The notes beneath the pieces were generated by a model, which did not search any database, was not told the DNA's origin, and saw only the letters and a list, made by a program, of their open reading frames with translations. Shown here in pieces: positions 30,425 to 34,127 of a DNA stretch of 41,898 bases (positions within the stretch are counted from its first letter, which is position 1; each line of letters starts with the position of its first letter). The position numbers and the translations under genes are program-made. Origin of the DNA: an uncultured archaeon (GTDB taxonomy: Archaea > Iainarchaeota > Iainarchaeia > Iainarchaeales > 1-14-0-10-31-34); the NCBI GenBank assembly GCA_964442255.1, contig CAYTYC010000012.1, forward strand, positions 1 to 41,898. The letters are read 5' to 3'.

Positions 30425-31270
30425 TTATTTAAGGTATAACAGGGTTTTTCTCCAGATTGTGGGGGTAATGGCGGGGTCGTAGTTGAAGTAAATGCTTTTT
30501 CCCACAATAAGGTTTTTTTCCACTATTCCCGGGTAAATGTCCAGCCCGTTCACGTTTTCTATTTGGGCGATTTCGTTTCCAACAGGGGTTACAGGGAATG
30601 TTTCAAGGTAATAGGGCGCAATTCCTTCAGCGGGCGCAATGTCAATGCCCTCCATTATCTGGTGCTTATAATCAACCCTCACAATCCTTCCTGCCACGGC
30701 TCTCCTATCGGTGCAGCCGTCCATTAACGGGTTATCCGTGTTATCGCACCTCACTGGCACAACGTCCCCAAAGGTTGCCTGCCAGCCCAGCACATCCGAT
30801 GCCCCGGGAACCCTTATCCCGGAATCCATTACCACGATTAGCTTGCCCCCGAACTGAACTTTTTTCTTTATTGCTTCAGCCACTTTTGCGGGAATTTCCT
30901 TGCTTCCCTCAAGGTGCTGGTCAAGTATGATTATCGGAAACTGCGCGAGCTGTTCTTCAGGCGAAACCTTTAACTGGTTGATGCTCCTGTAATGCACCCT
31001 CACTATGTCTTTGTTGTCGCTGAATGATTTTTCCATTGCAGGCGAAGCCGAGCCCACAAACAGCACGTTAGTCGGCTCCCCTCCGCCCAAACCAGGGATT
31101 TCCCAGAAGCCGAACCTGTGGCCAAGGAAAGCCACAATAATCAGGATTAAAATCAAGGGAATTAATCCTTCAAGGTTTCTTGACATTTTTCCCCTGAACC
31201 CGCCACCGGCAGGGGGGCTGTAATCAGCCGGAGAACCTCCTCCGCCTCCACCGTCGTCTTCCGGGTACAC
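30425..31270 (-). CDS. Membrane-anchored class I GATase-fold protein
   Basis: Gly/Pro-rich N-terminus, TM, QLAQFPIIIL...KKVQFGGKLIV. Confidence 0.7.
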   Translation of the reverse strand: MYPEDDGGGGGGSPADYSPPAGGGFRGKMSRNLEGLIPLILILIIVAFLGHRFGFWEIPGLGGGEPTNVLFVGSASPAMEKSFSDNKDIVRVHYRSINQLKVSPEEQLAQFPIIILDQHLEGSKEIPAKVAEAIKKKVQFGGKLIVVMDSGIRVPGASDVLGWQATFGDVVPVRCDNTDNPLMDGCTDRRAVAGRIVRVDYKHQIMEGIDIAPAEGIAPYYLETFPVTPVGNEIAQIENVNGLDIYPGIVEKNLIVGKSIYFNYDPAITPTIWRKTLLYLK

Positions 31271-31534
31271 TCTTTTTCACCTGATTCAATTAATCTGTTA
31301 ATACTAATACTATTTTACTGCTGAATTAATTTAAAAGCTTTTGTCCTTTAAAAGCTTTTCTCTTCCGCCGGGCTTGTAGATAAACTATTGGATTTTGGCT
31401 TTTGCAGATAAATTAAGTTCCCGTTTTTGAGCTTTTTAGCTTGTTTTTCCAAAGAAGGGAGCACAATACACGCTGGCTCACTATTTGTCAAAATGGCATA
31501 CAAAAAGGCAACCTTTTTATGCTTGTTGTAGGCT

Positions 31535-32266
31535 ATGGCTGGCATGGAAAAAGTCGAAAAATTTGATGTGAAACTGCCGAGCGATGCTACTAAGGTTACT
31601 GTCAGTAATCTGTGGTCATATTGCTTGGCTATAGCCAGAACAGGCAAAACCTTTGAGGCAAAAGATTTGCTGAAAGCTAACCCTCCACATACCTCAGAAG
31701 ACCCTATGCGAAGGAATTTAGCTTACCTGAAGTATTTGGGGTTTTTGGATGAAAAAAGGGAAAAGTTGGTAAAAGATGGGAAAAAAGTCAATATTCAACG
31801 GTTTAACCAGCGTGTGAAGGATGCCTTGGTTAAGGACTTCTTTTATTTGCTTGCATCAGGAAGGAAAGACGAAGCCAGAACCCACTGGAGACGCCTGATT
31901 GAGAAACACGCTATTTTCAAACTGGTTAAAAGCAAACTTTTCAAGGAAACAGATTTGGCTACCCTTAATGACTTGGAGGACCTGTTAAGGATTCAAGATA
32001 ACAGTAAAAGCAATCCGCAGTTTTACAAAAGTGGGGCATTATTTGTTGCGAGCCTGTTGGAAGAGGCTGGCCTCATAAAGTATAATTCAGTTGAAGGTAA
32101 GCTAAGGCCCCTGTCCCCCGAAGAAAGAACTGAAGGAGAAGAAGCTGCGCCTGGTTTTGCAAATGAACCACTTGGGATAAAAGAGAACTTGGAAAAAGGA
32201 GAAGAGTACCTTGTTTCGATACGTGGTGCAGATCTAAATCTTGATTTTAAGGTTAGAACCACGTAG
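31535..32266 (+). CDS. Hypothetical tandem winged-helix protein (DUF5343-like, tentative)
   Basis: RRNLAYLKYLGFLD and VASLLEEAGLIKY recognition-helix/wing-like motifs; ends at a TAG in frame with the next ORF. Confidence 0.6.
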   Translation: MAGMEKVEKFDVKLPSDATKVTVSNLWSYCLAIARTGKTFEAKDLLKANPPHTSEDPMRRNLAYLKYLGFLDEKREKLVKDGKKVNIQRFNQRVKDALVKDFFYLLASGRKDEARTHWRRLIEKHAIFKLVKSKLFKETDLATLNDLEDLLRIQDNSKSNPQFYKSGALFVASLLEEAGLIKYNSVEGKLRPLSPEERTEGEEAAPGFANEPLGIKENLEKGEEYLVSIRGADLNLDFKVRTT

Positions 32267-32269
32267 GAT

Positions 32270-32971
32270 TTGGACGATGTTAGAATGGTGCTAAAAGTAA
32301 TCGAAAGAAAGATTGCACAGAAAACAGCTGTGCCTTCTGTGGAAGACCCAAATGAGGAGTTAACATCCTGGCAGGTTGGTTCTATGGACGCAACAATAGT
32401 ATTCTTGGATGGGAAATATCTTCAGTTGATTGGCGATTATTTTAGTGACGAAGACGACAAATTAAGATACGACTTGAATCAATTGGCAATAACGCTTTCA
32501 AAGCAACAGGGGCTATGGTGCAAAAAAGCATTCTATTATACTGCACCACCATTTCAATCGGATGTACCAACAGCAGATGAGACCAAACGGAGGTCAAACT
32601 ATGACCGATTTAAGAACAAGTTGGATAAAATCCCCAACTTTGTTGTTAGGGAAGGTCGCTGCCAAAAAGTCGATGGAGAATGCCATCAAAAAGGAGTGGA
32701 TACGCTGGTAACGATGGACCTGCTTTCGGAAGCAGCCGCAAACAGGGGCTTAACCTTTGTTCTGGTAGCTTGCGATACTGATTTCGTGCCAATACTTAAA
32801 GAGATTAACGAAAAGTTTGGGATACGGATAGTCCTTTACTACTTTACTGATAGAGTGAGAGACTCTAAGTTCTCAATGTCCAATCACATTCTAACTGCTT
32901 GTGACGAATGCGTAATGATGACCAAGGACATGTTCCTAAAAAGTCAGTTTCCAAGAAATAGCGGAGAATAA
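32270..32971 (+). CDS. NYN-domain (LabA/DUF88, PIN-like) ribonuclease
   Basis: IVFLDGKY, FYYTAPP, QKGVDTLVTMDL, LVACDTDFVP. Confidence 0.9.
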   Translation: MDDVRMVLKVIERKIAQKTAVPSVEDPNEELTSWQVGSMDATIVFLDGKYLQLIGDYFSDEDDKLRYDLNQLAITLSKQQGLWCKKAFYYTAPPFQSDVPTADETKRRSNYDRFKNKLDKIPNFVVREGRCQKVDGECHQKGVDTLVTMDLLSEAAANRGLTFVLVACDTDFVPILKEINEKFGIRIVLYYFTDRVRDSKFSMSNHILTACDECVMMTKDMFLKSQFPRNSGE

Positions 32972-32980
32972 GAGTAACGT

Positions 32981-33004
32981 CTGGCATCCCCGTAGAAATG
33001 CCAG
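32981..33004 (+). terminator. Hairpin after the NYN gene
   Basis: CTGGCAT-10nt-ATGCCAG, 10 bp after the stop. Confidence 0.35.
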
Positions 33005-33143
33005 GGCTCATGTTATAAATAAAATACTTGAACAGGTATTTAAATCTTACTTTTGGCCTTTTTGCCCAATAAGTACTGTGGTGGCTTTGTGGACATGCCG
33101 CGGTAGGTTTATCTACAAGCCCTCTTCCCCGCCCAGTTCCTGC

Positions 33144-34076
33144 TTATTTCAGCATTCCGTTGTACATGTTCACTAAAATGTAATAGTATTTTTCCTCCAA
33201 ATCGGGGTGCGCAAACATTTCCGGGGGAAGCGCATAATAAGCCACTTTCCCGCCCCTTGTGATTATCACGGGAAAAACCCTCCCCAAATCCTCTCCATTG
33301 GAGTCCTTTACCGCTCCCCCGACATCCACGCTTAAAGGCGTTGTGCTGCCTGCTGCCCCTGAAGGCTTTACGACAGCAAAATTGCCCCGCATTAAAAGGT
33401 TTTTCTTCAAGCCCACAATAAACGCGTTGCCTGGCTCAACTCCCACTTCCAGCCTTCCAGCCAAAACACCCGTATGGCAGTTTTCGTCAAAGGAAGACAT
33501 TCCACAGTAATTGCCCTTATAGTTTGCGCCAATGAAGTCATCGAATGCAACAATTTTTTCTCCCTCTTTTCTCGCCCACGGCCCAATGATTTCGTGGTCG
33601 TTTTTTCCTTCCGGCCTTTCATCAAAGTACAGGAAATTGTCGTCCCTTCCAAGGACTGTCCCGGCATCACCTGTCCAGACAACCCTTCCGCCCTGGTTCA
33701 CGTAATTCATGAAATACTTTAACTGCCTGGTTTCCATTTCCCTTGCACGGGTTACAATCACAAGATGATAATCCTTCAAATTCCCTTCATTCAATAAATC
33801 CGTGTGAAGCCGGTAAGGGTAAACCCCGATATAGTCCCTGTCCCTTAAAATGTCCGCCAATAAATCCGGGTCACCCAAGCCCGAGTCACCGTAAACTATG
33901 AGCACTTTTGGCTGCCCCAAGACAGTGTAATAAACTTCGCACCACCCCGGAATTGTGCTGCACTTCATTATTCCGCTCCAAGTCAAAATAAACAGCACAA
34001 TTGCAACCAAAACCAGGAGCACAACCACGTGCATGGCGGTTTTCAGGGGAGACTGGGGCTGTCCGGGGTACTTCAT
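33144..34076 (-). CDS. Membrane-anchored class I GATase-fold protein, probable paralog of 30425-31270
   Basis: TM, PKVLIVYGD, LKDYHLVIVT...YVNQGGRVVW. Confidence 0.7.
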   Translation of the reverse strand: MKYPGQPQSPLKTAMHVVVLLVLVAIVLFILTWSGIMKCSTIPGWCEVYYTVLGQPKVLIVYGDSGLGDPDLLADILRDRDYIGVYPYRLHTDLLNEGNLKDYHLVIVTRAREMETRQLKYFMNYVNQGGRVVWTGDAGTVLGRDDNFLYFDERPEGKNDHEIIGPWARKEGEKIVAFDDFIGANYKGNYCGMSSFDENCHTGVLAGRLEVGVEPGNAFIVGLKKNLLMRGNFAVVKPSGAAGSTTPLSVDVGGAVKDSNGEDLGRVFPVIITRGGKVAYYALPPEMFAHPDLEEKYYYILVNMYNGMLK

Positions 34077-34127
34077 TTTCACCACAAAGCAAACGCTTTT
34101 ATTCCTTAAGGATTAAGTAGTTTTTAA

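What the first reader, a model, noticed from the sequence alone, without database searches (positions are those of the whole stretch)
31535..32971. wHTH and NYN ORFs are one reading frame split by a single amber codon
Seen: ...DFKVRTT-TAG-DLDDVRMVLKVIERKI... continues without another stop into the NYN domain, giving 478 codons if read through. The post-TAG helix looks like the natural end of the first domain. Options are (a) a fused sensor-nuclease silenced by a nonsense mutation, (b) regulated readthrough keeping nuclease levels low, or (c) two genes with NYN starting at its own ATG (MDATIV). TAG is a normal stop in nusA and the 27856 gene.
Basis: partly seen in the sequence, partly recalled or inferred. 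Interest (0 to 1): 0.62.

Follow-up and report, generated by a model that had tools for sequence, protein, structure and literature searches.

The report
Amber-truncated wHTH gene beside NYN nuclease
The single in-frame TAG is real, but it is best read as a recent nonsense mutation that cuts the last helix off a winged-helix protein sitting next to a separate NYN nuclease gene on a small transposase-less mobile cassette, not as a recoded or regulated fusion protein.

Summary
Observation confirmed. Frame 31535-32971 is open except for TAG at 32264-66.

The 19 codons after the TAG encode the conserved C-terminal helix of the upstream protein's family. All 23 aligned homologues (255-300 aa) keep this helix. 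A homologue-only HMM gains 20 bits on read-through, against +2±1.6 for shuffles. So the TAG is a premature stop.

The NYN gene is separate. Sixteen of 21 aligned homologues start within a few residues of ATG 32384. DNA homology to a 79%-identical orthologue begins exactly at that ATG. A weak SD-like AGGTTGGT lies at -11..-4.

I found no fused wHTH-NYN protein among 1.84 billion representatives, 5.8 billion clusters or 30 related loci. One other locus (L030) has the same pairing as two overlapping genes (GTGA) in different frames.

I found no recoding machinery: no PylS, no credible tRNA-CUA, and TAG ends about 15% of long ORFs. In-frame continuation of ≥150 codons past a stop is ordinary here (about 6% of long ORFs, no TAG excess).

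An independent Logan assembly reproduces the TAG.

Context: both genes lie on a 1753-nt insertion (31370-33122) with perfect 16-nt inverted ends. The insertion is absent from the syntenic site in relatives.

Unresolved: no stop lies between the helix and the NYN ATG, so a short-lived fusion before the TAG arose cannot be excluded.

The parts
31361..31369 (.). Left flanking direct repeat TCTTCCGCC, a candidate target-site duplication. Its partner TCTTCCCCG lies at 33123-33131 and matches at 7 of 9 positions.
   Evidence: Read from the sequence. The related element in L001 has a clean 10-nt duplication GCATGTAAAG.
31370..31385 (+). Left terminal inverted repeat GGGCTTGTAGATAAAC.
   Evidence: pair I3: 16/16 complementary to 33107-33122. 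These are the only two copies in the genome. About 7e-4 such pairs are expected by chance in 2.5 kb (my estimate).
31399..31417 (+). Subterminal repeat CTTTTGCAGATAAATTAAG. It is shared with both ends of the DDE-transposon in L001.
   Evidence: Alignment A3.
31535..32266 (+). ORF1, 243 codons, ending in the premature TAG. The likely leaderless start is ATG 31544. It encodes a tandem winged-helix protein whose C-terminal beta-beta-alpha module is truncated.
   Evidence: Homologues. AF2 model with pLDDT 87.5. Weak winged-helix fold matches to TFIIE-alpha, Pol III C82, PadR and Pex. No Pfam, NCBIfam, PADLOC or PHROG hit.
32264..32266 (+). In-frame amber codon, codon 244. Homologues carry mostly E, also S, Q, K, D, M, L or R, in this column.
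   Evidence: It is reproduced in an independent Logan contig of run SRR7048218.
32267..32323 (+). Post-TAG remnant DLDDVRMVLKVIERKIAQK, which is the family's conserved terminal helix (model helix 243-264).
   Evidence: It adds 20 bits to the family HMM. Its score per residue equals that of the rest of the protein.
32324..32383 (+). A 20-codon stop-free tail or spacer (TAVPSVEDPNEELTSWQVGS). Six of these 20 codons are one substitution away from a stop (8 of the 22 codons 262-283).
   Evidence: It has no DNA homology to the region upstream of the G005 NYN orthologue.
32373..32380 (+). Weak Shine-Dalgarno-like AGGTTGGT at -11..-4 of the NYN ATG.
   Evidence: The genome's enriched pre-start motifs are GTGGT, TGGTG, AGGTG and GGTGA, with a G peak at -10..-8.
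32384..32971 (+). NYN (PIN-like) nuclease gene, 195 codons, with its acidic catalytic residues intact. The public 228-aa call from ATG 32285 is probably over-extended.
   Evidence: Pfam PF01936 at 34.8 bits against a cut-off of 24.2, with the profile starting at residue 4. Homologue starts. Orthologue in G005. The 228-aa call is on record.
32980..33056 (.). Conserved non-coding element 3' of NYN: a hairpin CTGGCAT..ATGCCAG, a second hairpin and TATA-like boxes.
   Evidence: Visibly more conserved with G005 than the coding sequence, by my reading of the alignment. Fold z-scores are -2.6 (minus strand) and -3.0 (G005). No Rfam family matches.
33107..33122 (-). Right terminal inverted repeat GTTTATCTACAAGCCC.

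Best explanation
There are two genes, not one.

ORF1 belongs to an uncharacterised family of about 260 aa. Its predicted parts are two winged-helix domains, a disordered linker and a small beta-beta-alpha end module. In this genome a point mutation made codon 244 a TAG. Homologues mostly have Glu there, so GAG to TAG is one possible route. The product therefore ends at residue 243 and lacks the terminal helix.

The NYN (PIN-like) nuclease downstream is translated on its own from ATG 32384, probably from the same transcript through a weak SD-like motif.

The frame stays open from the TAG into NYN only because ORF1's original stop is no longer present. It was lost either by a single substitution in the short tail or when the two modules were joined.

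Both genes are cargo of a 1753-nt transposase-less cassette (31370-33122) that inserted between two conserved neighbour genes.

Shown here: the TAG, the homology of the post-TAG helix, the independent NYN start in relatives, the absence of fusions elsewhere, the absence of recoding machinery, and the insertion. Inferred: that the mutation is recent, that NYN is translated from 32384, and that ORF1-family proteins act as DNA-binding partners or regulators of RNase-type effectors.
For: (1) All 23 aligned homologues carry a helix after the TAG column and end 0-15 residues later. The closest ones, P0002 and P0152 (52-55% identical), align straight through the TAG.
(2) A homologue-only HMM scores 250.2 bits for the truncated protein (model positions 3-241) and 270.3 bits for the read-through, reaching the last matched model position (261). 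Shuffled tails score 252.4±1.6, maximum 261.4.
(3) The AF2 model places the TAG at the start of helix 243-264 of a confident beta-beta-alpha module.
(4) NYN: the Pfam profile starts at residue 4 of the ATG-32384 product. Sixteen of 21 aligned homologues begin within a few residues of that Met. The G005 orthologue (79% over the aligned part; 73%) is a stand-alone gene behind an AT-rich spacer. DNA homology to it starts at the ATG.
(5) No fusion appears in the exhaustive phmmer search: 626 hits, and the best 150 each match one half only. None appears in the 263-836-aa search or in 30 loci.
(6) L030 has an ORF1 homologue followed by an NYN gene with a GTGA overlap in a different frame.
(7) TAG is an ordinary stop in this genome. 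There is no PylS, and the control genomes behaved as expected. ARAGORN's 'tRNA-Pyl(cta)' is a type-II tRNA that Infernal aligns with anticodon CAG, so it is tRNA-Leu.
(8) The TAG is reproduced in an independent Logan assembly of one run.
(9) Cassette: perfect 16-nt TIRs. The same TIR and subterminal repeat bound a DDE_Tnp_1 transposon that carries the ORF1 homologue P0002. Relatives have the empty site: 100-130 nt between the two flanking genes, against 1873 nt here.
Against: No stop codon lies between the helix and the NYN ATG, so at least one further event (loss of a stop, or a junction event) must be assumed.

The post-TAG helix shows no decay. Its bits per residue equal the rest of the protein. 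That fits a very recent mutation, but it fits continued translation equally well.

The SD-like motif before ATG 32384 is weak, and there is no promoter-like AT box between the genes.

The Logan contig probably derives from the same sampling campaign, so it excludes an assembler artefact but does not confirm the TAG in an independent population.
Confidence: 0.6

Rival explanations
1. Just before the TAG arose, this lineage made a true ORF1-NYN fusion protein, with a winged-helix sensor or targeting domain joined to a nuclease. The amber codon then broke or silenced it.
For: With a sense codon at 244 the present sequence reads as one 478-codon ORF with no other stop. More distant NYN relatives are fused to varied N-terminal domains through a PGDxxGSPDE-like linker: HEPN in P0153, and others in P0154, P0155, P0029 and P0049. 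The window's tail PSVEDPNEE resembles that linker faintly. ORF1-family and NYN genes pair up at least twice (window and L030).
Against: No ORF1-NYN fusion exists among 1.84 billion representatives or 5.8 billion clusters. The closest NYN relatives (47-79% identical) are stand-alone proteins starting at the same Met. In L030 the pair is two genes. Eight codons between 262 and 283 are one step from a stop, so a lost stop is an equally cheap explanation. The linker resemblance is too weak to score.
Confidence: 0.2
2. The TAG is not the true or dominant base. It is a minority allele or a sequencing or assembly error, and the real gene carries a sense codon here. In that case the 478-codon fusion ORF would be real.
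For: The genome is a 51-contig MAG. The helix after the TAG is perfectly preserved. The read-level check could not be run.
Against: A Logan contig assembled independently from a single run is 100% identical over 1245 nt, including the TAG. Consensus substitution errors are rare in short-read assemblies (general knowledge). The resulting fusion would be unprecedented.
Confidence: 0.07
3. The amber codon is leaky or programmed, so most ribosomes stop and a few read through. This would give a low dose of wHTH-NYN fusion alongside truncated ORF1.
For: The frame is open on both sides and the helix is undecayed. A modest hairpin ends exactly at the TAG, with an 8-bp outer stem TACGTGGT/ACCACGTA.
Against: There is no PylS and no credible tRNA-CUA. 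TAG shows no genome-wide excess of open continuation. The hairpin lies upstream of the stop, not downstream, and is not significant (z=-1.8, 9 of 200 shuffles fold as well). No homologue has a stop at this column, so nothing is conserved.
Confidence: 0.04

Closest known systems
NYN / LabA-like nucleases (Pfam PF01936, group NYN.COG1432 of the PIN-like superfamily; PMC5499597)
   Same: The downstream gene scores above the Pfam cut-off. It keeps the acidic residues of strand 1 (FLDG), GVD, xDL and DTD. Its size and start match those of stand-alone members.
   Different: It belongs to a subgroup with an invariant APPFQS...REGRCQ insert. That subgroup is found mostly in uncultured archaea, often in mobile or defence-like neighbourhoods. 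No member has been tested biochemically. According to PMC5499597, NYN (PF01936) proteins as a class lack functional studies of nuclease activity.
Type II toxin-antitoxin-like operons with an upstream DNA-binding partner and a downstream RNase (e.g. VapBC, HicAB)
   Same: ORF1-family genes sit directly upstream of, and often overlap by 4-26 nt, a downstream gene. That gene is NYN in L030. It is HicA in L002. In six loci it is a 310-aa protein with an invariant RSMG[DT]AHG motif. They occur on mobile elements.
   Different: ORF1 is far larger than usual antitoxins (260 aa, two wH domains). The window has a 117-nt gap rather than an overlap. Neither toxicity nor neutralisation has been shown. Many family members have no such partner.
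Non-autonomous TIR elements carrying cargo, derived from IS4/IS5-type DDE_Tnp_1 transposons
   Same: It has perfect 16-nt TIRs, a subterminal repeat and an approximately 9-nt flanking direct repeat. Relatives have the empty site. A related autonomous element with the same ends and a DDE_Tnp_1 gene exists.
   Different: It is single-copy in this genome. No cognate transposase was detected in the assembly. Its direct repeats are imperfect (7 of 9). It carries two protein genes, unlike typical MITEs.
Pyrrolysine or other UAG recoding in archaea
   Same: The only shared feature is an in-frame UAG with coding sequence on both sides.
   Different: There is no PylS, no tRNA-Pyl and no TAG depletion, and the stop is not conserved in homologues.

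Membership tests
NYN domain nuclease (PF01936) | Profile match above the curated cut-off | tested here: met
   34.8 bits against a cut-off of 24.2, covering profile positions 2-141 of 145.
NYN domain nuclease (PF01936) | Conserved acidic metal-binding residues (Asp in strand 1, and Asp residues in the GVD, xDL and DTD motifs) | tested here: met
   D106, D131 and D133 are invariant and D112 is nearly invariant in 22 sequences. The window also has D in FLDG.
NYN domain nuclease (PF01936) | Metal-dependent nuclease activity | not testable with these tools
   This needs an enzyme assay.
Programmed UAG recoding (pyrrolysine or suppressor-tRNA read-through) | PylS or a tRNA with a CUA anticodon encoded in the genome | tested here: not met
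   TIGR02367 found nothing in the own genome, while the control genomes behaved as expected. ARAGORN's intron-mode 'Pyl(cta)' has a long variable arm and discriminator A73, and Infernal aligns its anticodon as CAG.
Programmed UAG recoding (pyrrolysine or suppressor-tRNA read-through) | The in-frame stop is conserved at the same position in homologues | tested here: not met
   All 23 aligned homologues have a sense codon there.
Programmed UAG recoding (pyrrolysine or suppressor-tRNA read-through) | TAG is rare as a terminator, or is enriched inside genes genome-wide | tested here: not met
   TAG ends about 15% of long ORFs. It shows no excess of open continuation.
Fused wHTH-NYN protein architecture | Homologues in which one polypeptide spans both halves | tested here: not met
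   None among the best 150 hits, none, and none among 30 loci.
Non-autonomous TIR transposable element | Terminal inverted repeats | tested here: met
   A 16/16 match, unique in the genome.
Non-autonomous TIR transposable element | Target-site duplication | tested here: inconclusive
   TCTTCCGCC against TCTTCCCCG, 7 of 9. The related L001 element has a clean 10-nt duplication.
Non-autonomous TIR transposable element | Empty site in relatives | tested here: met
   G003, G005 and G007 have 100-130 nt between the same two flanking genes. Here the gap is 1873 nt, that is 1753 + 120.
Non-autonomous TIR transposable element | A related autonomous element with the same ends and a transposase | tested here: met
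   L001 has the same TIR and subterminal repeat and a DDE_Tnp_1 gene.
Type II toxin-antitoxin module | A conserved two-gene operon with a tightly coupled upstream partner | tested here: inconclusive
   Overlapping pairs occur in L030 (NYN), in L002 (HicA) and in six loci with the 310-aa partner. Many loci lack any partner, and the window has a 117-nt gap.
Type II toxin-antitoxin module | Toxicity of the downstream gene that is neutralised by the upstream one | not testable with these tools
   This needs expression tests.

The most novel reading that the evidence does not exclude
The amber codon is a deliberately leaky stop. Most ribosomes would release a helix-less winged-helix protein. A small fraction would read through to make a DNA-targeted wHTH-NYN fusion nuclease. 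That would give a mobile cassette a dose-limited effector in a DPANN archaeon that has no known UAG-decoding machinery.
Probability: 0.04. Interest if true: 0.75.

Novelty: new member of a known kind. Interest (0 to 1): 0.3.

Why it matters
Taken alone, the finding is an annotation point. ORF1 is a truncated, possibly disabled gene. The public 228-aa NYN call probably starts 33 codons too early. In-frame neighbours separated by one stop are common in this compact genome, so they should not be read as recoding without evidence from homologues.

The follow-up produced a modestly useful by-product. An uncharacterised tandem winged-helix family, with no entry in Pfam, NCBIfam, PADLOC or PHROGs, repeatedly sits just upstream of RNase-type genes and rides on DDE-type transposons in DPANN and other uncultured archaea. 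It is a candidate new partner class for nuclease effectors. If that is right, the truncated copy here leaves an NYN nuclease next to a damaged partner, which is a natural starting point for testing what the family does.

Tried and rejected
As a substitute I used an exact-protein look-up, which found an independent Logan contig carrying the TAG.
- Pyrrolysine. PylS is absent.
- Suppressor tRNAs. ARAGORN in intron mode proposed tRNA-Pyl(cta) and tRNA-Stop(tta). Both come from misplaced introns. The first is tRNA-Leu(CAG) according to the Infernal alignment. The second is probably tRNA-Gln(UUG) with a long intron, which is my own reading of the sequence and was not confirmed.
- Genome-wide TAG leakiness. 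There is no excess of open continuation after TAG. The raw count of same-frame pairs (22 TAG, 31 TGA, 43 TAA) looked slightly TAG-rich but does not hold up with a proper denominator.
- RNA structure at the TAG. Not significant, z=-1.8.
- Fusion homologues. None found.
- P0010's N-terminal extension as a precedent for a helix-NYN fusion. The BLAST extension over residues 239-283 is weak and rides on the NYN match, so I did not use it.
- PDB sequence search for the read-through protein. No hits.
- Rfam scan of the cassette. Nothing.
- The 310-aa partner as a HEPN RNase. It has an invariant R-x5-H motif, but there is no Pfam hit, no PDB sequence hit, and Foldseek matched only its N-terminal winged helix. 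This remains unproven.
- A cognate transposase in the own genome. None detected.
- 16S 3' end, to define the anti-SD sequence. It is not in the assembly. I used k-mer enrichment upstream of start codons instead.

Full report
**1. The observation**

The frame that starts at ATG 31535 contains one stop, TAG at 32264-32266, before TAA at 32969-32971. Read-through gives 478 residues. The coordinates and quoted peptides are exact. TAG is a normal terminator here.

The geometry alone is not remarkable. The genome holds 96 places where two frames of at least 150 codons are separated by one stop. After ORFs of at least 250 codons, the frame stays open for 150 or more codons in 6.9% of TAG cases, 8.9% of TAA and 3.8% of TGA (Fisher p=0.83).

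**2. What lies on either side of the TAG**

An exhaustive phmmer search with the read-through protein against 1.84 billion representatives gave 626 hits. The best 150 each match only one half of the query.

Hits to the first half are 255-300 aa long and align to query residues about 4 to 260-264. They run straight through position 244. The closest are P0002 (261 aa, 55% identical) and P0152 (270 aa, 52% identical).

In an alignment of 23 homologues, every one has an amphipathic helix after the TAG column and ends 0-15 residues later. The TAG column holds mostly E, also S, Q, K, D, M, L or R.

I built an HMM from the homologues only:
- The 243-aa product scores 250.2 bits and stops at model position 241.
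- The read-through scores 270.3 bits and reaches the last matched model position (261).
- 300 shuffles of the post-TAG segment score 252.4±1.6, with a maximum of 261.4.

The gain is about 1 bit per residue, the same density as the rest of the protein. The helix-coding stretch therefore shows no decay.

AlphaFold2 on this alignment (pLDDT 87.5) predicts two winged-helix domains (residues 23-92 and 126-192) and a disordered linker. It then predicts a beta(225-230)-beta(235-240)-helix(243-264) end module. The TAG removes that whole helix. Foldseek against the PDB gives only weak winged-helix matches: TFIIE-alpha, Pol III C82, PadR and Pex, with a best E-value of 5.6e-3. The label "wHTH" is therefore supported at fold level only. 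The family has no entry in Pfam, NCBIfam, PADLOC or PHROGs.

**3. The NYN gene stands alone**

- Pfam NYN (PF01936) matches from residue 4 of the product of ATG 32384, at 34.8 bits against a cut-off of 24.2.
- In an alignment with 21 homologues, 16 begin within a few residues of this Met. The acidic residues (FLDG, GVD, xDL, DTD) are intact.
- A same-family genome (G005) has an orthologue that is 79% identical over the aligned part (73%). It is a separate gene behind an AT-rich, stop-rich spacer and an unrelated upstream gene.
- DNA homology between the two genomes begins at the ATG.
- AGGTTGGT at -11..-4 resembles the genome's enriched pre-start motifs GTGGT, TGGTG, AGGTG and GGTGA.
- The public record calls a 228-aa product from ATG 32285. 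By homology this is probably 33 codons too long.

**4. Fusion or not**

No protein spanning both halves was found. None appeared in the 5.8-billion-cluster search restricted to 263-836 aa, nor among 30 loci encoding ORF1 relatives.

One of those loci, L030, does carry an NYN gene (Pfam E-value 2.4e-14) directly after the ORF1 homologue. There the two are separate genes that overlap in GTGA, in different frames.

More distant NYN relatives (36-42% identical) are fused to other N-terminal domains, such as HEPN in P0153, through a PGDxxGSPDE-like linker. The clade can therefore tolerate N-terminal fusions. The window's closest NYN relatives are not of that kind.

**5. Recoding**

PylS is absent, and the control genomes behaved as expected. 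Plain ARAGORN finds no tRNA-CUA.

In intron mode, ARAGORN proposes a "tRNA-Pyl(cta)" and a "tRNA-Stop(tta)". The first has a long variable arm and discriminator A73, and Infernal aligns its anticodon as CAG with an intron after it, so it is tRNA-Leu(CAG). The second is, by my reading, probably tRNA-Gln(UUG) with a long intron.

A hairpin that ends at the TAG is not significant, with z=-1.8.

**6. Is the TAG real?**

ORF1 (243 aa) and the 228-aa NYN call are singleton clusters in the 15-billion-protein collection. The NYN protein is also encoded on a Logan contig of run SRR7048218. That contig is 1245 nt long and 100% identical to window 31791-33035, including the TAG. This excludes an artefact of the MAG's assembler. 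It does not exclude a polymorphism, and it is not an independent population.

**7. Context**

The two genes lie on an insertion.

*Ends.* GGGCTTGTAGATAAAC at 31370-31385 is perfectly complementary to 33107-33122, and these are the only copies in the genome. Imperfect direct repeats flank them: TCTTCCGCC and TCTTCCCCG.

*Related autonomous element.* The same terminal motif and a subterminal repeat (CTTNTGYAGATAAATTAA) bound a 4.7-kb element in L001, a sister-genus genome. That element has a clean 10-nt duplication and carries a DDE_Tnp_1 transposase, Vsr, a cytosine methylase and the ORF1 homologue P0002.

*Empty site.* In G003, G005 and G007 the two genes that flank the cassette here are 100-130 nt apart. 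In the window they are 1873 nt apart, which is the 1753-nt cassette plus 120 nt.

*Transposase.* No homologue of that transposase was detected in the own assembly.

*Neighbours of other ORF1-family genes.* Six loci have a tightly coupled 310-aa protein with an invariant RSMG[DT]AHG motif. L002 has an overlapping HicA, and L024 a convergent HicAB pair. Transposases and methylases lie nearby in several other loci. Whether the 310-aa partner is a HEPN RNase could not be settled.

**8. Reading**

The best-supported account has four parts:
- ORF1 suffered a recent nonsense mutation that deletes its terminal helix.
- NYN is an independent gene.
- The in-frame continuity exists because ORF1's original stop is gone.
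- Both genes are cargo on a stranded, transposase-less cassette, where gene decay is expected.

One loose end remains. Eight codons between 262 and 283 are a single substitution away from a stop. A lost stop is therefore a cheap explanation, but a short-lived real fusion before the TAG arose is about equally parsimonious on sequence alone. I give it 0.2.

Functionally, I infer that ORF1-family proteins are DNA-binding partners or regulators of RNase-type effectors in TA-like or defence-like modules. That is an inference from gene neighbourhood only.

**9. Verdict**

Neither an established fusion nor regulated read-through has support. The case is ordinary in kind, with a modestly interesting uncharacterised family and mobile cassette around it.

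Noticed in passing
window 32980-33056; L008 (G005:C97) about 1448-1530: The roughly 80 nt after the NYN stop hold a hairpin CTGGCAT..ATGCCAG, a second hairpin and TATA-like boxes. They look more conserved between two genera than the NYN coding sequence itself, by my reading of the alignment. There is no Rfam match. The stretch could be a terminator, a small RNA or a recombination site that travels with the NYN gene.
   Followed up: partly
L001 1581-6309 (same sequence as G004:C6): A 4.7-kb transposon with TIR GGGCTTGTAGATAAA, a subterminal repeat and a 10-nt duplication GCATGTAAAG. It carries Vsr, an HTH_17 protein, a cytosine methylase, the ORF1 homologue P0002, a tRNA-like 3' fragment (my reading, not scanned with a tRNA tool) and a DDE_Tnp_1 transposase split into two ORFs.
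   Followed up: partly
L023, L025, L028, L034, L038, L043 (immediately downstream of the ORF1 homologues): A conserved 310-aa partner protein overlaps or abuts the ORF1-family stop. It has an N-terminal winged helix and an all-alpha C-terminal half with an invariant NDAGRxLEDFLR...RSMG[DT]AHG motif (R-x5-H, HEPN-like). It has no Pfam or PDB sequence match.
   Followed up: partly
G000:C4 16958-17073 (minus strand) and G000:C1 84094-84336: ARAGORN in intron mode labels two intron-bearing tRNAs as Pyl(cta) and Stop(tta). They are more likely tRNA-Leu(CAG), with a 32-nt intron, and tRNA-Gln(UUG), with a 170-nt intron. The latter would be an unusually long tRNA intron.
   Followed up: partly
window 32285-32971: The public protein record for NYN (228 aa, starting at ATG 32285) appears to include 33 N-terminal residues that are really the stranded end of ORF1's helix plus the spacer.
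   Followed up: yes
L004 5484-5494 and L006 3305-3315: A single exact copy of the TIR core CTTGTAGATAA (GGGTCTTGTAGATAAAG) lies about 1.7 kb downstream of another NYN gene (P0010), past a DUF3800 gene. No inverted partner turned up in the 6.8 kb held.
   Followed up: no
window 30425-31270 and 33144-34085 (both minus strand): The two genes flanking the cassette look like membrane-anchored paralogues. They are adjacent in every relative where both were seen, in the conserved order g205 - g313 - g281 - Alba.
   Followed up: partly
L048 (Logan contig of SRR7048218): The independent contig breaks at window positions 31791 and 33035, inside ORF1 and inside the conserved 3' element. This may mark graph branch points caused by related elements or strain variants in that sample.
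   Followed up: no
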